Source: Candidatus Poribacteria bacterium (GTDB taxonomy: Bacteria; Poribacteria; WGA-4E; WGA-3G). From it: a stretch of DNA of 64,000 nt. The stretch is taken from contig PYJA01000138.1 in assembly GCA_003635185.1 (NCBI GenBank), positions 43,820-107,819 on the forward strand. Direction: 5' to 3'. The position numbers and the translations under genes are program-made. Positions 3,262-20,241 of this stretch are shown here, one piece after another (position 1 is the first letter of the stretch; every line of letters begins with the position of its first letter). A model generated the notes under the pieces. It did not search any database. It saw only the letters and a list, made by a program, of their open reading frames with translations, and was not told where the DNA came from.

Positions 3262-3931
3262 AAGTAAGGTAATTGGACTTGTCATTGTTATCGGTGTTAT
3301 GGCTGTGATCTATTCTTTGTTAAGGTATTTCGGTGTAACAGAGTATATTGCGCTTCAGAATGTCTACAAGATCAAAGAATGGGTTTCAGGATTCGGCATA
3401 ATCGCGCCATTAATCTACATCGGTTTTTACATTGTCGCGACACTTTTCTTTTTACCGGGATTACCGATTACAGTGCTTTCAGGCGTTGCATTCGGTCCGG
3501 TATGGGGTGTCGTTTATGTTTGGATTGGATCGGTAACTGGGGTATCGCTTGCCTTCTTGGTTGCACGTTATGTGGCACGCGACCTTGTTGAAAACTGGGT
3601 TTCGGGGAACGCCCAATTCCAAAAAATTGATGAGAAGGTGGAACAGGAAGGGTGGCGTATCTTGATGTTCACGCGTTTAGTCCCTATCTTTCCCTTTAAT
3701 TTGCAAAACTACGCCTATGGACTCACCAAAATTAAGTTTTTAACATACATGCTTGTTTCAGCGATTTTTATGTTGCCTGGCACTATAGCGTACGTGCAAA
3801 TTGGGGGTGCGCTTGTCAGCGGTGAAGGGAATCTGTCTAAGACTTTGATTTATCTTTCTATAGCAGGTGTTCTTTTTCTTTTAGTATCTCTCATCCCGAA
3901 ATTTCTGCGGAAACATCAACCTGATTTATAG
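3251..3931 (+). CDS. TVP38/TMEM64 (DedA/SNARE-associated) family membrane protein
   Basis: Motif block LPGLPITVLSGVAFGPVWGVVYVWIGSVTGVSLAFLVARYVARDLVENW is typical of the DedA/TVP38 family. Multi-TM. Confidence 0.7.
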   Translation: MKSKSKVIGLVIVIGVMAVIYSLLRYFGVTEYIALQNVYKIKEWVSGFGIIAPLIYIGFYIVATLFFLPGLPITVLSGVAFGPVWGVVYVWIGSVTGVSLAFLVARYVARDLVENWVSGNAQFQKIDEKVEQEGWRILMFTRLVPIFPFNLQNYAYGLTKIKFLTYMLVSAIFMLPGTIAYVQIGGALVSGEGNLSKTLIYLSIAGVLFLLVSLIPKFLRKHQPDL

Positions 3932-7055: not shown

Positions 7056-9620
7056 CTATTTCCGTATCAACATCTTCCGTGTAGCACTGAAATCGCCTGC
7101 GGTGAGGGTATAGAAATACACGCCGCTTGCTACAGACTCCCCAACATCATTTTTGCCATCCCAATACGCTGCACGGTTGCGGTCATGATACTTGCCGACT
7201 GCTTGATGTCCGAATGCAAGTGTTCTCACTAACTTCCCATCCGCAGCGTAGATGTGCAATGTTACATCTGCAGGTTTTGCTAATTGATACGGTATCCACG
7301 TCTCGGGATTGAAAGGGTTCGGATAATTCGCAAGCAATGCAGTCTCTTTTGGCATCAAATTTTGCAAAATTTGCTCCAACACCTGAATTCCCCGTTGATA
7401 TGAAAGCAGATCCGGCTTTTGTGATAACTCTTGCTTAGCAAGTGTTAACCATTCCTGTACTTGCGCTGCAGTCAGCTGTTCTCTTGAAATCGATCGCATA
7501 GAAGGTGCTGATTCTATATTTTCCAATGCGTTTGCAACCAAATAAAGGTCCAATAAATTGACTTCACCATCATTGTTAATATCTGCAGGAGTGTTACCAG
7601 TTTCACCAAAACTTGATACTATCAACACGATATCGAGTATATTCAAAACACCGTCGTTGTTAACATCTGCAAATACTGTGAGAACTTGCTCTACACTCAG
7701 CGGGAGTGGGTATGCCCAAAGGATGACAGTTCCATCAAAACTTCCGCTTGCTATTGTAGCACCATCCGGACTGACTGCTACACTCGTGATAGAATATGTA
7801 TGCCCTTCAAAGGTATGAAGTTGTTCTCCGGTGACAGTGTCCCATAAACGTATCGTTGCGTCATGACTTCCACTAACGAGTACTTTACCGTCTGGACTAA
7901 AAACGATACTGGTAGCATTTGCAGGAAGGTCCGTCGGCACATCTCCTGTCAAATCTTCCAGTGCTTCTACCGGGACTTCGCGATCAAGCGGTCTGCGGAA
8001 TGTTTGGAGAAGTTCCGCTGTTTCAACATCCCATAAGGAAACTGTGTCGCCACCACCACTGGCAAGTTTAGTGCCATCCGGACTAAACGCCACTGCCCAA
8101 ACATCGTCCTCATGTTCACTGATAGTGTGGATAGCATCTCGTGTTTCGAGATCCCACAAGATGATCTTATCGTCACGGCTACCACTGGCAAGCATAGTGC
8201 CATCCGGACTGAATGCAAGTGCCTCAACACCTGCTTCATGCTCCCATAAACCTCCCATGTATCGTCCTGTAGATACATTCCATAAACGTATACTGTCGTC
8301 TTCGCTCCCACTTGCTAAAATACTTCCATCCGGACTGAATGCAAGACTAATCAGATAGGACCAATGTCCTCTGAGCGTCTTTATATGGTCGCCTGTAATT
8401 GCATTCCATAAACGGACGGTATTGTCTTGGCTACCACTTGCGAGGGTTCTGCCATCCGGACTAAATACGACAATATCAACATCATCTTGGTGTCCAATGA
8501 GCGTATGTCTAAGTTGCCCTGTGTCAGCGTCCCAAAGGCGGACAGTTTTGTCCCAACTTCGAGTGGCAAGGATCCTACCATCAGCACTATAAGTGACACT
8601 CGCAACAGCATCAGTATGTCCGGTAATGGTTTTGAGGTGTTTCCCTGTGATAGGATCCCATGAACGTATTGAGGCATCCCACGCCCCGCTGGTAAGCACC
8701 GAGCCATCCGGCGTGAAAGCAAGCCCAAAGACATCAGCTGTATGTTCAGTGATTGTGTGTAAAGGTTCACCTGTGGCTGCATCCCACACGCGGACGGTGT
8801 CATCTTCACCCGCACTTGCCAGAATACCCCCATCTGGACTAAATCTCATATCATAAATATGAGACGTATGTCCAAGAAGCGTCTGTTTGATTGTCCAAGT
8901 CGTTGTATCCCATAGATGGATAACCGCGTTCCAATCTCCGCTGGCAAGCGTTTTTCCATCGGGACTAACCACAACACTTGCAACGTTATCTCTATGTACT
9001 TCAAGCGTTTGCAGTGGTTCTCCTGTAGCAGCATCCCATATTCTGATAGTATCGTCTCGACTGCCACTAATGACGGTGCTGCCATCAGCACTGAAAGCAA
9101 CGCTGTTGAGACCATCCGTATGTCCACGCAGTGTCCGCAGAAGTTCTCCGGTTTGAGGATTCCACAAACGGACGGTTCTATCTCTACTGCCGCTTGCAAG
9201 TATGGTCCCATCAGCATTAAAAACAAGGCTACGGACACTCGCCCAATGCTCGTCGAGGGTGTGTAGGATTTCACCTGTTTCCGTATCATACAGACGGATG
9301 TCCCCGTTTGTACTTCCACCAGCGAGGATGCTGCCATCAGGGGAATACGTAAGTGCCGAAACAGCCCTTCCAAATCCAGTTAATAACGTAATTTCTTTAT
9401 CGGTTGTTGTGTCATAAATCCAAATACCAAGTGAACCTGCTGCGGCAAGTCGTGCGCCATCGGGTGAGTATTGAACTTCATATAGCCAGCCTTTTCCCAG
9501 ACGTTTCGTTGCGCCTGCAGGTAGATGCCATTGTGGCGAATCCTGGGCGAAAATGTTGGGTTGATAGAGGATTGAACTGATAAACAGTGTTAAGAAAATG
9601 TAAAACTGAGTTTTTTTCAT
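7056..9620 (-). CDS. Secreted WD40-repeat protein with dockerin-like repeats and a T9SS-type C-terminal sorting domain (Por_Secre_tail-like)
   Basis: Signal peptide MKKTQFYIFLTLFISSILYQPNIFAQD. Start chosen at the ATG at 9620 with AGGAGA RBS; ORF-track start 9812 is upstream of the signal peptide. About 14 WD40 units (LxGHTxxVxSVxFSPDGxxLASGSxDxTIRLWD). Dockerin-like DVNNDGVLNILDIVLIVSSFG / DINNDGEVNLLDLYLVANA. C-terminal NYPNPFNPETWIPYQL...GVYFYTL. Confidence 0.8.
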   Translation of the reverse strand: MKKTQFYIFLTLFISSILYQPNIFAQDSPQWHLPAGATKRLGKGWLYEVQYSPDGARLAAAGSLGIWIYDTTTDKEITLLTGFGRAVSALTYSPDGSILAGGSTNGDIRLYDTETGEILHTLDEHWASVRSLVFNADGTILASGSRDRTVRLWNPQTGELLRTLRGHTDGLNSVAFSADGSTVISGSRDDTIRIWDAATGEPLQTLEVHRDNVASVVVSPDGKTLASGDWNAVIHLWDTTTWTIKQTLLGHTSHIYDMRFSPDGGILASAGEDDTVRVWDAATGEPLHTITEHTADVFGLAFTPDGSVLTSGAWDASIRSWDPITGKHLKTITGHTDAVASVTYSADGRILATRSWDKTVRLWDADTGQLRHTLIGHQDDVDIVVFSPDGRTLASGSQDNTVRLWNAITGDHIKTLRGHWSYLISLAFSPDGSILASGSEDDSIRLWNVSTGRYMGGLWEHEAGVEALAFSPDGTMLASGSRDDKIILWDLETRDAIHTISEHEDDVWAVAFSPDGTKLASGGGDTVSLWDVETAELLQTFRRPLDREVPVEALEDLTGDVPTDLPANATSIVFSPDGKVLVSGSHDATIRLWDTVTGEQLHTFEGHTYSITSVAVSPDGATIASGSFDGTVILWAYPLPLSVEQVLTVFADVNNDGVLNILDIVLIVSSFGETGNTPADINNDGEVNLLDLYLVANALENIESAPSMRSISREQLTAAQVQEWLTLAKQELSQKPDLLSYQRGIQVLEQILQNLMPKETALLANYPNPFNPETWIPYQLAKPADVTLHIYAADGKLVRTLAFGHQAVGKYHDRNRAAYWDGKNDVGESVASGVYFYTLTAGDFSATRKMLIRK

Positions 9621-9820
9621 AATGAAAATTCTCCTTTCTTGATAAGTGCGATTTGAAGCGAAACCTTTCCGGTAAATATCGGAACAGATCACTGAGTTCC
9701 GCTTTGGCAAGTTTGTACTCTTGCCTTTTAGACAATAGTGTTGATAAATTATACATATTCTGATATAATTTTTCCAGAAAAAAGTAAACCTAATAATAGT
9801 TTTAAAAGCCAAAATGAGGT

Positions 9821-16400: not shown

Positions 16401-17771
16401 TTGATGGCTGTTGAACTGAGAATGCTCCAAATGGATCAGACAATGACAAAGGGAAAAATCGGGAAATGGCTTGTGAAGGAAGGTGATACCGTGACAGAGG
16501 GGCAACCCCTGCTGGAAATAGAAACGGATAAGGTTGTCCATGAACAGGAATCGCCTGCTGATGGTGTTATTGCACAAATTCTTCCAGAAGAGGGCAGTGA
16601 TGTGCCTGTTAATGCATTGTTAGCGATTATCGCTGCACCGGGTGAAGCGGTTGAACGTGTTGAAGTGGATACCATGGTGGAAGCACAAGAGTCCGATGAA
16701 CCAGAGCAGGCTACCACCACACCTTCAGCACCAATTAAAACGCAACCTCAACCGACAACACCAGCAGCAAAAAACATTAAAGCATCACCAGCAGCAAAAC
16801 AACTTGCCGAAAAACTTACTATTGATCTCATGCAAGTGAAAGCCTCTGGTCCCGGTGGTCGTATTCTTGAAAGTGATATTCATCGCTATATTGAAACGAG
16901 AGGACCGACTCCAACTGAATCAACCCGTCTTAAAGCCTCACCACTCGCGCGCCGATTAGCGAAGGAATTTGGACTTGACCTCGCTTCAATTTCAGGTTCA
17001 GGTCCCGATGGCAGAATAGTCCGTGATGATGTATTGCAAGCCACCGATGAGATACCCACCCATGTATTTCGGACTGAACCTGCTGCTTCAGAAGTTATTG
17101 AACTCAGCGGCATCCGCAAAATCATTGCAGAACGCATGACAATGAGCGTTCAAACAAACGCAAGTGTAACACTTCACACCGAAGTTGACGCAACAACCCT
17201 TGTTGAATTACGCGGATTATTCAACGAAGAATTACAGAAGAGAGAAGTAAGTCTTACCTATACCGACCTGCTTGTGAAGATGGTTGCTATAGCCCTGCGG
17301 GAACATCGACCACTCAATGCTACACTCACAGACGAAGGGATTCACATGTTAGCAGATATTAACATCGGAGTTGCGGTTGCATTGGACGATGGTCTTGTCG
17401 TACCAGTTGTCCGCAATGCCGATCAGATCGGTTTGGCTGCTATCTCTGAACAGGTAAGAACTTTAGCTGAAAAGGCACGCAACAATCAACTTACACCCAG
17501 TGAACTGCAAGGCGGCACCTTTACCTTAACGAATCTTGGTAATTTTGGGATTGATGCGTTTACACCTATTATCAATCCACCTGAGTGTGCGATTCTTGGT
17601 GTAGGACGCATTGTCAAAAAGCCGGTTGTTCACAACGATGAAATCGTTATCCGGAGCATGTTGGCACTAAGTTTGACGTTTGATCATCGTGTTGTTGATG
17701 GGGCACCTGCTGCACAATTTTTACAAACAGTGTCTCAATATATTCAGAATCCATATCTATTACTTGTATAG
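16401..17771 (+). CDS. Dihydrolipoamide acyltransferase (E2 component of a 2-oxoacid dehydrogenase complex)
   Basis: Lipoyl domain (EIETDKV), two peripheral-subunit-binding domains (ASPAAKQLAEKLTIDL..GSGPGGRI; ASPLARRLAKEFGLDL..GSGPDGRI), catalytic domain with DHRVVDGA. Confidence 0.85.
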   Translation: MMAVELRMLQMDQTMTKGKIGKWLVKEGDTVTEGQPLLEIETDKVVHEQESPADGVIAQILPEEGSDVPVNALLAIIAAPGEAVERVEVDTMVEAQESDEPEQATTTPSAPIKTQPQPTTPAAKNIKASPAAKQLAEKLTIDLMQVKASGPGGRILESDIHRYIETRGPTPTESTRLKASPLARRLAKEFGLDLASISGSGPDGRIVRDDVLQATDEIPTHVFRTEPAASEVIELSGIRKIIAERMTMSVQTNASVTLHTEVDATTLVELRGLFNEELQKREVSLTYTDLLVKMVAIALREHRPLNATLTDEGIHMLADINIGVAVALDDGLVVPVVRNADQIGLAAISEQVRTLAEKARNNQLTPSELQGGTFTLTNLGNFGIDAFTPIINPPECAILGVGRIVKKPVVHNDEIVIRSMLALSLTFDHRVVDGAPAAQFLQTVSQYIQNPYLLLV

Positions 17772-17781
17772 GAAAATATTT

Positions 17782-18408
17782 ATGAAAAAATTGATCTGTT
17801 TACTCGTCTCATTATCTCTGTTCACAATTGGGTACGCGCAAGAAACAGGTTTGGATGACTTGCTCGCTTCTGATGTCAATAGGGATGGGACAGTAAATAT
17901 CCTTGATTTGACGTTTGTTGCTTCCCACTTTGGCGAAGTGCTTTCTGAAGATCAGCATCCTAATCCAGATGTGAACGGCGACGGAACCGTAAACATTCTT
18001 GACCTTACACTGGTCGCGAGCTACTTCGGTAAGTATTCTGGTATTCCGCTTGAATTAACCGATAAAACTTATGACAACATTGTGCGTAACACAAAACTCC
18101 CTATTTTGGTCGAATTTAAGTCTGATTCCTGAATCTACTGTATATTGATGAGGCCGGTGGTCTCTGAAATTGCATTAGAATATCGTGACGTTTTCGTCAT
18201 AGCAAAATTAGATGTGCACGACAATCCAGAAAAAACAGCAGCGTACCACATCCGAGGAACACCGACATATATCCTATTCTACGAAGGAAACATTGTGAAA
18301 ACAATTATCGGTGCGATGCCGAAGGAGAGATTGGTAAACCAGATTCTTGACGGGTTAGCTACGGTGATAGAACCACCACTCACACAGGAGCAGGCAGACG
18401 GCGAATAG
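17782..18408 (+). CDS. Secreted dockerin-thioredoxin fusion interrupted by one in-frame TGA (18130-18132) at the first Cys of the redox motif (UxxC); candidate selenoprotein, alternatively a pseudogene
   Basis: Signal peptide MKKLICLLVSLSLFTIGYAQE. Two dockerin-like repeats (DVNRDGTVNILDLTFVASHFG; DVNGDGTVNILDLTLVASYFG). Across the TGA, the region LTDKTYDNIVRNTKLPILVEFKSDS-U-IYCILMRPVVSEIALEY...IRGTPTYILFYEGNIV aligns residue-for-residue by eye with E. coli TrxA [43 protein letters not shown]...IRGIPTLLLFKNGEV. Same reading frame on both sides of the TGA. Confidence 0.45.
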
Positions 18409-20241
18409 TGCTGTCCATTGCCACACTTCTCGCGTGAGAGGTTGTATCAGATTTTTCTCGTTTACTCGTTCTTGTGAGTTTGATTCTATTTTAGGAAATG
18501 GGAGTGCGGATTCAGTAGCGTCAAGTAAATTAACAGCGAACCGTTCAAACGGAGAATCATCAACAAGGACGGCGTAAACTCCGATTTGGTCTGTTTCTGT
18601 GAACACTTCACTGTCTAATTCAACTGTGGTACTGTCAGGTTTTTTCACCTGAATATCGGATTTCTCTACAGGCGGTAAATCGATTTTCAAGTGTTCCCCT
18701 GTCCGAAATATTTGCCTTGTCCTGTCTGTTTGAATTGTAAGCGACTTTATAGGGGCAGCTCTGGATTCAAACCACGCTAAGCATCGGTACATAAATATCG
18801 GAACATCTGGAATAGTCGTAAGAAAAGAAGAAATTCCTGGATTGAACGCATCAAATTCAAAGACAAGAAATTGTCTGTTTGCTTCAGTACCAAGCCATAC
18901 TAACGCACCCTTTTCGGATTCAATAAGCGAATTTGCCCAGAGTGGCAATTCTCTTCGTACAGATTCTTTTACCTGTAATCCCATAATAGATACGTCCTGC
19001 ATAATCGGATGGGTTTTATTCTCTTTAATAACAGAAACCGGCGTTGTAACGATTTCAACAGAGGGATCTGTTATAAACGGCAATTCCGTTTGCGAATTGA
19101 TAACGATTATACTTTCTGTGCCGGAAAGGTTTAGAAAACCGTGTTTCGTAGGGATTCCACCGTGAAAAATGACGGCATCCGCATCACCCGGACCGTGGTA
19201 TTCATCTATAGAGACTGTCTGTAATTCAACATGATTTCCGTAACTTCTCAAAAGATCTGTTAGAAAAGGTTGATCTCTATCACTAACAAGCAGTATTCGG
19301 AATTGTTTTAGTGGGTTAAGGATTGCCCACGCGTTGTTGTCCAACTCAAAGTCATCAGCAACATCAATAAGGTGGAGGCTAATGGCTCTACCTTCCAATC
19401 TGTCCGCGTTGATAGAAAATAGAACATTTTTTACCTCTCCAGCAGGAATTACCAAAGTTTTTTCATCAATTGCTGTTCCACCTTCAAGTGCTAACGCAAT
19501 GTCTATTTTTCTCTCCGTCCCTGTCCAATTTTGGATACCCGCGAGAATTGTATATTGATTAGCAATTCTTTCCACACTGAATTGCACAATACCGATATTT
19601 TCTGCAGCATCCCCGACCGCGATTTTGCTAATAGGCACAGACGTATCCGGCAGATTTTCAAATGAATCGCTAATAAAAAAAATCTGATCATTCGGAGAGT
19701 CAGCATAACGCGTTGCATGATCAAACACTGATGTCAACTCACCAACTGCATGTGTTGACGCGATATTTTGCACGGCACGCCGAAGTTTAGCTTTATCTGT
19801 GGTAAATGCTTGTTGAATATAAGGTTTCGGAGCATGCGTTGCCATAAGCATCATGCCCCCACTTGCAGAAACCTGATTGATGTGTTTCAACACTTCCTGT
19901 TTTGCAAGTGCCAATCGGGTTTCTCCCATCTCCTGTGACTGCATACTTGCCGAATTGTCAACGATAAAGATTATTTTGCCATGAATTATACCGGGAATTT
20001 GTAACGCTGGACGCGCTACACTTATGATTATGACAAGTAAAAACAGACTTTGTAAAATTGGTAGGAGTAGATTCCGAAGACGTTGAAAAGGGACATTTGC
20101 TTTTTGATCCTCTGCACTTGCGCGCCAGAGCATCATACTCGGTACAACATAACGTTGTCGACGCAGCTTCAGAAAGTGCAGCGCAATTACGATAGGGATA
20201 ATTCCTAACAGATAAAACGCGACTGGGTTCAGGAAAGCCAT
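18355..20241 (-). CDS. BatA-like protein: N-terminal double-TM aerotolerance-type domain plus von Willebrand factor A domain
   Basis: N-terminus MAFLNPVAFYLLGIIPIVIALHFLKLRRQRYVVPSMMLW matches the BatA N-terminal motif. VWA MIDAS block IIFIVDNSASM. Confidence 0.65.
   Translation of the reverse strand: MAFLNPVAFYLLGIIPIVIALHFLKLRRQRYVVPSMMLWRASAEDQKANVPFQRLRNLLLPILQSLFLLVIIISVARPALQIPGIIHGKIIFIVDNSASMQSQEMGETRLALAKQEVLKHINQVSASGGMMLMATHAPKPYIQQAFTTDKAKLRRAVQNIASTHAVGELTSVFDHATRYADSPNDQIFFISDSFENLPDTSVPISKIAVGDAAENIGIVQFSVERIANQYTILAGIQNWTGTERKIDIALALEGGTAIDEKTLVIPAGEVKNVLFSINADRLEGRAISLHLIDVADDFELDNNAWAILNPLKQFRILLVSDRDQPFLTDLLRSYGNHVELQTVSIDEYHGPGDADAVIFHGGIPTKHGFLNLSGTESIIVINSQTELPFITDPSVEIVTTPVSVIKENKTHPIMQDVSIMGLQVKESVRRELPLWANSLIESEKGALVWLGTEANRQFLVFEFDAFNPGISSFLTTIPDVPIFMYRCLAWFESRAAPIKSLTIQTDRTRQIFRTGEHLKIDLPPVEKSDIQVKKPDSTTVELDSEVFTETDQIGVYAVLVDDSPFERFAVNLLDATESALPFPKIESNSQERVNEKNLIQPLTREVWQWTALFAVCLLLCEWWFYHRS

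What the first reader, a model, noticed from the sequence alone, without database searches (positions are those of the whole stretch)
17782..18408. Candidate selenocysteine (UxxC) thioredoxin fused to a signal peptide and two dockerin modules
The ORF ending at TGA 18130-18132 and the downstream ORF are in the same frame. Across the TGA the sequence aligns residue-for-residue with the thioredoxin fold, and the TGA falls at the first Cys of the WCGPC redox motif: VEFKSDS-U-IYC-ILMRPVVSEIALEY against E. coli [25 protein letters not shown]. The whole C-terminal half of the Trx fold is intact downstream (IRGTPTYILFYEGNIV). A UGA at the catalytic Cys of a CxxC redox protein is the classic Sec signature. 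Positions +18 to +32 after the UGA can fold as GAGGCC-GGU-GGUCUC, a 6-bp stem with a GGU apical loop, at the distance expected for a bacterial SECIS. The protein is also predicted extracytoplasmic (signal peptide plus tandem dockerin repeats). The alternative is a Trx pseudogene inactivated at its active site.
Basis: partly seen in the sequence, partly recalled or inferred. Interest (0 to 1): 0.75.

Follow-up and report, generated by a model that had tools for sequence, protein, structure and literature searches.

The report
Exported dockerin-linked selenocysteine thioredoxin gene
This is very probably a real selenoprotein gene: a secreted, dockerin-tagged thioredoxin of a Poribacteria (sponge-symbiont phylum) genome. 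Its catalytic cysteine is replaced by selenocysteine encoded by an in-frame UGA, and public databases cut the gene short at that codon.

Summary
Window 17782-18408 (+) is one 208-codon frame with a single TGA (18130-18132) at the first Cys of a thioredoxin CxxC centre. A signal peptide and one dockerin domain precede it.

The pseudogene alternative is rejected:
- In 37 species-level Poribacteria genomes, the syntenic orthologue has TGA at this codon in 34 and TGT in 3. It is never TAA or TAG.
- In 33 of the 34, the frame stays open to a conserved C-terminus.
- dN/dS is 0.15 on both sides of the TGA, with dS about 1.1.
- Cys forms sit at five or more places in the tree.

It shows compensatory changes (G-C/C-G/A-U), and its loop codon GUG is kept in 33 of 34 Sec forms and 0 of 7 Cys forms. 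One genome carrying the TGA allele (WGA-3G) is reported to encode SelA, SelB and SelD.

Not shown here: the sel genes or tRNA-Sec of this genome, or actual selenium incorporation.

Sec-thioredoxins are known. The signal peptide plus dockerin architecture, a larger paralogue and the phylum-wide spread appear undescribed. Interest is moderate.

The parts
17770..17774 (+). Shine-Dalgarno-like AGGAA, 7 nt before the ATG
   Evidence: Read directly from the sequence. Inference only.
17782..18408 (+). Full selenoprotein coding sequence: 208 codons, Sec at codon 117, stop TAG 18406-18408
   Evidence: Single frame. Full-length Cys homologues of 191-213 aa align over the whole length.
17782..17838 (+). 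Predicted Sec-type signal peptide (MKKLICLLVSLSLFTIGYA | QE)
   Evidence: The n-region/h-region/YA-QE pattern is kept in orthologues. AlphaFold gives a low-confidence N-terminal helix at residues 2-19 in the orthologue. No signal-peptide predictor was available, so this is inference.
17869..18027 (+). Dockerin type I domain (residues 30-82) with two DxNxDGxxNxxD calcium-binding repeats
   Evidence: Pfam PF00404, E = 6.6e-13, 49.1 bits against a cut-off of 22.9.
18049..18345 (+). Thioredoxin-fold domain (residues 90-188)
   Evidence: Pfam PF00085, 2.2e-19. PDB phmmer 2e-19. AlphaFold model of the Cys orthologue plus Foldseek: E. coli Trx, TM 0.91, rmsd 0.9 A.
18130..18132 (+). UGA selenocysteine codon (residue 117), at the attacking position of the U-I-Y-C redox centre
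   Evidence: Aligns with the first Cys of CxxC in Cys homologues and PDB thioredoxins. TGA in 34 of 37 orthologues, TGT in 3.
18139..18141 (+). TGT, the resolving Cys120 of the UxxC motif
   Evidence: Invariant Cys in all family members.
18150..18164 (+). SECIS upper stem-loop: GAGGCC (18150-18155), loop GGU (18156-18158), GGUCUC (18159-18164)
   Evidence: Minimum-free-energy fold. The stem is 95% paired in 21 orthologues, with two covarying pairs. Meets the bacterial SECIS consensus criteria.
18134..18179 (+). Possible extended lower stem around the SECIS hairpin (weakly supported)
   Evidence: Present in the window's fold at -14.2 kcal/mol, but only 75% paired across orthologues and with little covariation.
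16401..17771 (+). Upstream neighbour: 2-oxoacid dehydrogenase E2 acyltransferase. Its stop lies 10 nt before the selenoprotein ATG, so co-transcription is likely.
   Evidence: Pfam 2-oxoacid_dh, E3_binding and Biotin_lipoyl. Synteny is kept in the clade L001-L012, L018 and L086.
18355..20241 (-). Convergent neighbour: BatA/VWA membrane protein, overlapping the selenoprotein 3' end by 54 nt
   Evidence: Pfam BatA + VWA_2. It is the neighbour in most orthologous loci.

Best explanation
The gene at 17782-18408 encodes a 208-residue selenoprotein. During translation, the hairpin at 18150-18164 (18 nt after the UGA) acts as a bacterial SECIS. It is expected to recruit SelB-GTP carrying Sec-tRNA(Sec), so UGA 18130-18132 is read as selenocysteine rather than stop (inferred from the canonical bacterial mechanism).

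The product has three parts: an N-terminal signal peptide that sends it across the inner membrane, one calcium-binding dockerin type I domain that should anchor it to a cohesin-bearing partner or surface, and a thioredoxin-fold domain with the redox centre Sec117-Ile-Tyr-Cys120. Sec sits at the N-cap of helix 2, the attacking position, and Cys120 is the resolving residue. The hallmark thioredoxin residues are kept: the buried acidic residue (E111, matching E. coli D26), K142 (K57) and the cis-proline P161 (P76).

The most likely activity is thiol/disulfide (selenenylsulfide) exchange on extracytoplasmic substrates. Sec would provide a stronger nucleophile that is less easily over-oxidised in an oxidising compartment.

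Shown here: the conserved UGA, translation of the downstream frame, the RNA hairpin, the fold and the motifs. Inferred: SelB dependence, export, docking, and the direction and substrates of the redox reaction.
For: - Cys/Sec pairing: full-length homologues have Cys exactly where the window has TGA. About 80 of the best 120 database clusters are 115-128-aa proteins, and all 13 whose sequences were read end exactly at this codon.
- Conservation of the codon: 34 of 37 orthologues from different Poribacteria species genomes have TGA and 3 have TGT. None has TAA or TAG. In 33 of the 34, the downstream frame is open for 78-91 codons.
- Orthology: the loci are syntenic. The BatA neighbour is always present and has diverged to 45% identity.
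- Translation downstream: dN/dS is 0.146 downstream and 0.153 upstream, with dS about 1.1. Conserved residues use up to 4 synonymous codons.
- TGA is otherwise a stop: it ends 9 of 46 long ORFs in the window, and no other credible in-frame TGA exists.
- SECIS structure: the upper stem is 95% paired in 21 orthologues. Pair 22-34 is CG 9/AU 7/GU 2 and pair 23-33 is GC 15/AU 3/CG 2. 0 of 500 shuffles reach the observed covariation score, and slid controls give 33-58% pairing (all 31 sequences).
- SECIS consensus: the loop begins with G, the stem has 6 bp, the spacing is 23 nt and the MFE is -7.6 or -14.2 kcal/mol. These fit the published model.
- Loss in Cys forms: the loop codon Val+9 is GUG in 33 of 34 Sec forms (synonymous entropy 0.19) and in 0 of 7 Cys forms. 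Mean hairpin MFE is -7.3 (34 Sec forms) against -2.2 (3 Cys forms); the other four Cys forms do not form this hairpin either.
- A paralogous family has the same UGA and its own covarying hairpin.
- Machinery: SelA, SelB and SelD are reported in Ca. Poribacteria WGA-3G (Slaby 2017, Table S4). That genome carries the TGA allele (L016). A Sec-type hydrogenase is also reported in Poribacteria.
- Fold.
Against: - No sel gene or tRNA-Sec lies in the 64-kb window or in the fetched loci, so the machinery of this genome is unverified.
- No Rfam family matched, even at E <= 10.
- The hairpin alone is not significant (z = -1.4), and RNAalifold on all 31 sequences returns only 3 bp. An 11-member subclade uses a shifted and weaker hairpin, CUGU-GGUC-ACAG, at about -4 kcal/mol. 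That is above the -7.5 kcal/mol consensus limit.
- Covariation in a coding region is entangled with protein constraints and phylogeny.
- Export, docking and enzymatic direction are inferred only. No cohesin partner or redox partner was identified.
Confidence: 0.88

Rival explanations
1. Thioredoxin pseudogene: a nonsense mutation inactivated the active-site codon and the downstream part is decaying.
For: A single TGA at the catalytic codon would knock out function. Annotation pipelines call a 116-aa product. One relative (L036) really is broken just after the TGA.
Against: The TGA is kept in 34 of 37 species-level genomes whose neighbouring genes have diverged to 45% identity. TAA and TAG never occur. 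The downstream frame is intact in 33 of the 34, with dN/dS 0.146 at dS about 1.1.
Confidence: 0.02
2. The UGA is recoded, but not to selenocysteine. For example, Cys could be inserted by a SelB-dependent tRNA(ReC)-type tRNA, or Trp or Gly by near-cognate read-through.
For: [quoted passage not shown] The chemistry at position 117 cannot be read from DNA.
Against: The position pairs only with Cys in homologues, and the hairpin fits the Sec-type SECIS consensus. A plain Cys codon is one mutation away and has been taken at least 5 times, so keeping UGA merely to insert Cys would have no obvious benefit. SelA and SelD (Sec synthesis) are reported in WGA-3G.
Confidence: 0.06
3. The UGA is a true stop. 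The functional product is a 116-aa secreted dockerin protein, and the downstream piece is made separately by re-initiation at the conserved Met six codons later (ATG 18148) or at the TTG one codon before it (18145).
For: An ORF starting at TTG 18145, just before that Met, is listed. When selenium is scarce, termination at UGA is expected to yield this truncated form as a by-product.
Against: Codons +1 to +5 (I-Y-C-I-L), between the UGA and the first possible restart, are conserved at the amino-acid level with synonymous variation (Cys+3 uses TGT and TGC; Leu+5 uses 5 codons). Neither fragment would be a complete thioredoxin fold. The helix carrying UxxC spans the break. Cys forms are single polypeptides.
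Confidence: 0.04

Closest known systems
Sec-containing bacterial thioredoxin (PF00085, UxxC; example WP_010956703.1), listed with the characterised selenoproteins, above the 'predicted with high confidence' group, in the 2026 prokaryotic selenoproteome review (PMC13188914)
   Same: Same Pfam family and the same placement of Sec at the N-terminal attacking position of UxxC. Cys-containing homologues exist, and the SECIS lies inside the coding region just after the UGA.
   Different: The known Sec-Trx is described as a small thioredoxin. This one has a signal peptide and a dockerin domain, and non-canonical dipeptides (IY, PY, PF, LF instead of GP). It lacks the Trp before the first redox residue and scores below the TrxA equivalog cut-offs (65.6 against 96.8 bits).
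[quoted passage not shown]
   Same: Thioredoxin-fold thiol:disulfide oxidoreductases with Sec in the redox motif, from families whose members usually act outside the cytoplasm (own knowledge).
   Different: Different subfamilies. NCBIfam gave no hit to any of their dedicated selenoprotein models. A full-text search for 'selenoprotein' together with 'dockerin' found no relevant paper.
E. coli fdhF-type bacterial SECIS and the bSECISearch consensus model (PMC13188914, Fig. 2A)
   Same: A stem-loop immediately 3' of the UGA, inside the ORF, with a small apical loop starting with G followed by G or U, 16-37 nt from the UGA. One subclade here has a GGUC tetraloop; from memory this is also the fdhF loop, but that was not checked here.
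   Different: Shorter: a 6-bp upper stem and a triloop in the window. The lower stem is not conserved. Different clades use shifted registers. No Rfam model matched.
Cellulosomal type I dockerins (PF00404)
   Same: Duplicated 22-residue calcium-binding segment with the DxNxDGxxNxxD pattern. NCBIfam also gives a weak hit to the dockerin end of CelK.
   Different: Here it is attached to a redox domain rather than a glycoside hydrolase, in a phylum not known for cellulosomes. No cohesin partner was identified.

Membership tests
Bacterial selenoprotein gene (Sec-UGA with bacterial SECIS) | In-frame UGA aligning with a conserved Cys of homologues (Cys/Sec pair) | tested here: met
   Cys homologues P0001-P0051 and loci L011, L012, L018 and L083-L086 have TGT or TGC at the aligned codon.
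Bacterial selenoprotein gene (Sec-UGA with bacterial SECIS) | UGA-containing orthologues in other organisms, with the downstream frame under purifying selection | tested here: met
   34 of 37 species genomes have TGA. dN/dS is 0.146 downstream and 0.153 upstream.
Bacterial selenoprotein gene (Sec-UGA with bacterial SECIS) | SECIS by the consensus model: 3-9 nt loop, 4-16 bp stem, G in the first two loop positions, 16-37 nt from the UGA, MFE <= -7.5 kcal/mol | tested here: met
   Window: loop GGU, 6 bp, 23 nt spacing, -7.6 kcal/mol (30-nt segment) and -14.2 kcal/mol (63 nt). The L015-type subclade meets the loop and spacing criteria but not the MFE criterion.
Bacterial selenoprotein gene (Sec-UGA with bacterial SECIS) | selA, selB, selC (tRNA-Sec) and selD present in the same genome | tested here: inconclusive
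   None lies in the window or in the fetched loci, and the rest of this genome is not available. From the literature, WGA-3G, which carries the TGA allele (L016), has COG1921 SelA = 2, COG3276 SelB = 1 and COG0709 SelD = 1. tRNA-Sec was not checked.
Bacterial selenoprotein gene (Sec-UGA with bacterial SECIS) | Selenium actually incorporated at the UGA position | not testable with these tools
   Needs 75Se labelling or mass spectrometry.
Rfam SECIS families | Match to a curated covariance model | tested here: not met
   No hit at gathering score over the whole window. At E <= 10 on 17900-18500 the only match was one chance snoRNA hit, with no SECIS model.
Thioredoxin family (Pfam PF00085) | Thioredoxin fold, with the redox motif at the N-terminus of helix 2 | tested here: met
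   Pfam 69.8 bits against a cut-off of 23.5. The AlphaFold model of Cys orthologue P0001 has pLDDT 85 with residue 117 just before helix 118-133. Foldseek gives TM 0.91-0.95 and rmsd about 1 A to thioredoxins.
Thioredoxin family (Pfam PF00085) | Buried acidic residue (D26), K57 and the cis-Pro76 loop of E. coli Trx | tested here: met
   In the alignment, E111 (D in some orthologues), K142 and G-T-P161-T occupy the matching positions. They are invariant or nearly so. The roles of these residues come from established knowledge of E. coli Trx.
Canonical thioredoxin TrxA (NCBIfam TIGR01068 / NF006898 equivalogs) | Score above the equivalog cut-off, a WCGPC motif and a small cytoplasmic protein | tested here: not met
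   65.6 bits against a 96.8 cut-off, and 66.2 against 138. The motif is S-U-I-Y-C. The protein has a signal peptide and a dockerin. It is a Trx-family domain, not a TrxA orthologue.
Dockerin type I (Pfam PF00404) | Two tandem calcium-binding loop-helix repeats | tested here: met
   Pfam 49.1 bits against a cut-off of 22.9 over residues 30-82. Both repeats read D-V-N-x-D-G-T-V-N-I-L-D. The model shows helices 40-48 and 72-80.
Dockerin type I (Pfam PF00404) | Binds a cohesin module | not tested
   No cohesin was found among the 20 window proteins scanned. The rest of the genome was not available.

The most novel reading that the evidence does not exclude
Poribacteria may deploy selenoenzymes outside the cytoplasm on a docking system. 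Two related families share a signal peptide, a dockerin and a Sec-thioredoxin; one of them adds Ig-like repeats as a long stalk. Both would be tethered by dockerin-cohesin-type interactions to the cell surface or a scaffold. There they could carry out selenium-dependent disulfide reduction, isomerisation or oxidant defence in the sponge mesohyl. That would make them, as far as my searches show, the first dockerin-bearing selenoproteins. It would also give a functional reason for the enrichment of Sec machinery reported in sponge symbionts.
Probability: 0.35. Interest if true: 0.6.

Novelty: new variant of a known kind. Interest (0 to 1): 0.45.

Why it matters
- Annotation: this gene is systematically mis-annotated. 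Of the best 120 public protein clusters, about 80 are 115-128-aa proteins that lack the whole C-terminal half of the enzyme; where a source names them, it is 'dockerin type I domain-containing protein'.
- Selenium use: it shows that selenocysteine use is widespread and old in Poribacteria, and that it has repeatedly been traded for Cys at a single syntenic locus. That makes a clean natural experiment on Sec/Cys exchange and on SECIS decay.
- Biology: it links selenium biochemistry to the extracytoplasmic, dockerin-tagged protein repertoire of sponge symbionts.
- Limits: it does not change what is known about how Sec is decoded, and Trx-fold selenoproteins are the commonest kind.

Tried and rejected
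- Rfam: at gathering thresholds on the whole window there was no hit. At E <= 10 on 17900-18500 the only match was a chance snoRNA hit, with no SECIS model.
- tRNA and sel genes: ARAGORN found no tRNA in the window or in 60 loci. tblastn of E. coli SelA, SelB and SelD against the window plus 80 loci gave no hit. The machinery could therefore only be supported from the literature.
- RNAalifold: on all 31 Sec-form sequences it returned only a 3-bp consensus, because two clades use shifted registers. I split the set and tested the named structure instead.
- Single-sequence folding significance is weak.
- Source contig: looking up the window's own truncated product to find its contig and sample found nothing on record.
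- Literature: searches for dockerin selenoproteins, Poribacteria dockerins and sponge-symbiont selenoproteins found nothing relevant.
- Global reassignment of TGA was considered and rejected, because TGA ends 9 of 46 long ORFs. Other in-frame TGA candidates in the window all look spurious.
- Family 2 is not present in the window.

Full report
**What is in the sequence**

Window 17782-18408 on the + strand is a single reading frame of 208 codons. It starts at an ATG preceded by AGGAA and ends at TAG 18406-18408. Its one internal stop is TGA at 18130-18132, codon 117.

With that codon replaced by Cys, Pfam finds one dockerin type I domain (residues 30-82, E = 6.6e-13) and a thioredoxin domain (residues 90-188, E = 2.2e-19). 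The N-terminus, MKKLICLLVSLSLFTIGYA|QE, looks like a signal peptide. This is inference, because no predictor was available.

phmmer against PDB aligns residues 90-190 end to end with bacterial thioredoxins, and the TGA falls on the first Cys of WCGPC. Otherwise the description is accurate.

**The gene is not a pseudogene**

A protein search returned about 36 clusters of longer homologues that retain the thioredoxin domain (mostly 190-221 aa). It also returned about 80 clusters of 115-128-aa proteins at 58-95% identity; the 13 I read all stop exactly before this codon. Where a source names them, it is 'dockerin type I domain-containing protein' of Candidatus Poribacteria. The full-length homologues have Cys at the aligned position (C-I-Y-C, C-F-Y-C, C-G-F-C).

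A scan of one genome per species gave 37 orthologous loci, all Poribacteria. Of these, 34 have TGA at this codon and 3 have TGT. None has TAA or TAG. In 33 of the 34 the frame stays open for another 78-91 codons to a conserved C-terminus.

The loci are syntenic. A convergent BatA/VWA gene is always adjacent and an E2 acyltransferase lies upstream in the window's clade, while the BatA protein has diverged to 45% identity.

Among TGA-bearing genes, dN/dS is 0.146 downstream of the TGA and 0.153 upstream, with dS about 1.1. Conserved downstream residues use up to four synonymous codons. The five codons between the UGA and the next Met are conserved as amino acids too, which argues against re-initiation.

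TGA is an ordinary stop elsewhere in the window (9 of 46 long ORFs), and no other credible in-frame TGA exists. In a neighbour-joining tree, Cys forms occupy at least five separate positions among Sec forms. Two genomes whose family 1 gene is Cys still keep TGA in a paralogue.

**The RNA element**

It gives -14.2 kcal/mol for 63 nt and -7.6 kcal/mol for the 30-nt core.

It fits the published bacterial SECIS consensus: 3-9 nt loop, 4-16 bp stem, G in the first two loop positions, 16-37 nt from the UGA, and MFE <= -7.5 kcal/mol (PMC13188914). The spacing here is 23 nt.

On its own it is not significant (z = -1.4), and no Rfam model matched. The comparative evidence is better:

| Test | Result |
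|---|---|
| Upper-stem pairing, 21 orthologues using this register | 95% paired |
| Pair 22-34 | CG 9, AU 7, GU 2 |
| Pair 23-33 | GC 15, AU 3, CG 2 |
| Shuffles reaching the observed covariation score | 0 of 500 |
| Pairing in slid controls | 33-58% |

Some compensations combine an amino-acid change on one arm (Arg to Lys or Ala) with a synonymous Val change on the other.

The loop codon Val+9 is GUG in 33 of 34 Sec forms, with synonymous entropy 0.19 against 1.4-1.9 for other four-fold Val codons. It is GUG in 0 of 7 Cys forms, which have Ile, Thr or GUC there. Mean hairpin energy is -7.3 kcal/mol in 34 Sec forms against -2.2 in the three Cys forms tested; measured against synonymous recodings, the z-scores are -1.2 and +1.2. 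The four further Cys forms do not form this hairpin either.

There are weak points. An 11-member subclade uses a shifted, weaker hairpin (CUGU-GGUC-ACAG, extended to GCCUGU/ACAGGC in two members). RNAalifold on the mixed set finds only 3 bp. The lower stem is poorly supported at 75% paired.

**Sec machinery**

No sel gene or tRNA-Sec lies in the window or in the fetched loci, so this genome cannot be checked.

From the literature, Slaby et al. 2017 (PMC5649159) report SelA and SelB co-occurring in most sponge-symbiont bins. Their Table S4 lists SelA = 2, SelB = 1 and SelD = 1 for Ca. Poribacteria WGA-3G. That genome is the source of locus L016, which carries the TGA allele. A 2026 study reports a Sec-type group 4 hydrogenase in Poribacteria (PMC13582414).

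**Protein and likely mechanism**

An AlphaFold model of the 72%-identical Cys orthologue (pLDDT 85) shows an N-terminal helix, a two-helix dockerin and a classic thioredoxin fold. Residue 117 sits immediately before helix 118-133. Foldseek places the domain on E. coli thioredoxin at TM 0.91 and rmsd 0.9 A.

E111 (D in some orthologues), K142 and the G-T-P161-T loop correspond to D26, K57 and cis-P76 of E. coli Trx.

The domain is not a TrxA orthologue. It scores below the equivalog cut-offs, lacks the Trp before the redox centre and has IY, PY, PF or LF instead of GP. No curated selenoprotein HMM in NCBIfam matched it.

My reading is that SelB-dependent Sec insertion produces an exported, dockerin-anchored thiol/selenol oxidoreductase. 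Export, docking partner, redox direction and substrate are all inferred.

**Comparison and novelty**

Sec-containing thioredoxin (PF00085, UxxC) is an established bacterial selenoprotein family, and many Trx-like selenoproteins are predicted (PMC13188914). The kind is therefore known and the decoding mechanism is canonical.

Three things appear undescribed in the searchable literature:
- the signal peptide plus dockerin architecture;
- a second, larger paralogue family with dockerin, repeats, Big_5 and a Sec-Trx domain;
- the near-universal presence of the gene across Poribacteria, with repeated Sec/Cys switching.

I rate this a new variant of a known kind, of moderate interest.

Noticed in passing
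L013:5105, L019:2720, L021:5467, L022:5214, L023:5007, L024:5238, L026:2632, L030:5397, L031:2618, L032:2669, L035:5396, L039:5010, L037:3151, L038:3088, L083:4808, L084:5087 (positions of the TGA): A second selenoprotein family, absent from the window. It has a signal peptide, a dockerin, five to seven ~70-aa repeats, a Big_5 Ig-like domain and a C-terminal thioredoxin. The TGA is at the same catalytic Cys (motif W/G-U-P/H/L-F-C). Where both occur in one locus, it lies within about 2 kb of the family 1 gene. It has its own hairpin, GGNG-CC-AGUU-GU-CNCC, with C-G/U-G/A-U covariation.
   Followed up: partly
L083 (3361 and 4808) and L084 (3361 and 5087): In these two genomes the family 1 gene has switched to Cys (TGC or TGT) and lost the hairpin, while the neighbouring family 2 gene keeps TGA. 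The Sec-to-Cys change is therefore gene-specific and not due to loss of the Sec trait.
   Followed up: partly
L036 (PYIY01000003.1), about 3361-3380: This orthologue has the TGA, but the frame breaks five codons later (IYCIT*) and unrelated sequence follows. It is either an insertion, making it a true pseudogene, or an assembly join.
   Followed up: no
window 7056-9812 (-): A 918-aa protein made largely of WD40 beta-propeller repeats that also carries a dockerin-like segment (tblastn hit at 7377-7679). It is another example of dockerins attached to non-cellulolytic, eukaryote-like repeat proteins in this genome.
   Followed up: partly
window 18355-18408: The 3' end of the selenoprotein gene overlaps the 3' end of the convergent BatA/VWA gene by 54 nt. 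The same overlap is seen in relatives, for example L086 at 3574-3627.
   Followed up: partly
window 17771-17782: The selenoprotein ATG follows the stop of a 2-oxoacid dehydrogenase E2 gene by only 10 nt, which suggests co-transcription of a secreted redox protein with a central-metabolism gene. The link is kept only in the window's clade. In other clades a URO-D gene is upstream instead (L083-L085).
   Followed up: partly
Genome-contig scan: At least 486 stretches in Poribacteria genomes matched the query's patterns and passed tblastn; most of the 80 loci kept (L040-L080) match only its dockerin repeats. Dockerin-tagged proteins are therefore very abundant in this phylum, yet no cohesin was seen among the 20 window proteins scanned.
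   Followed up: no
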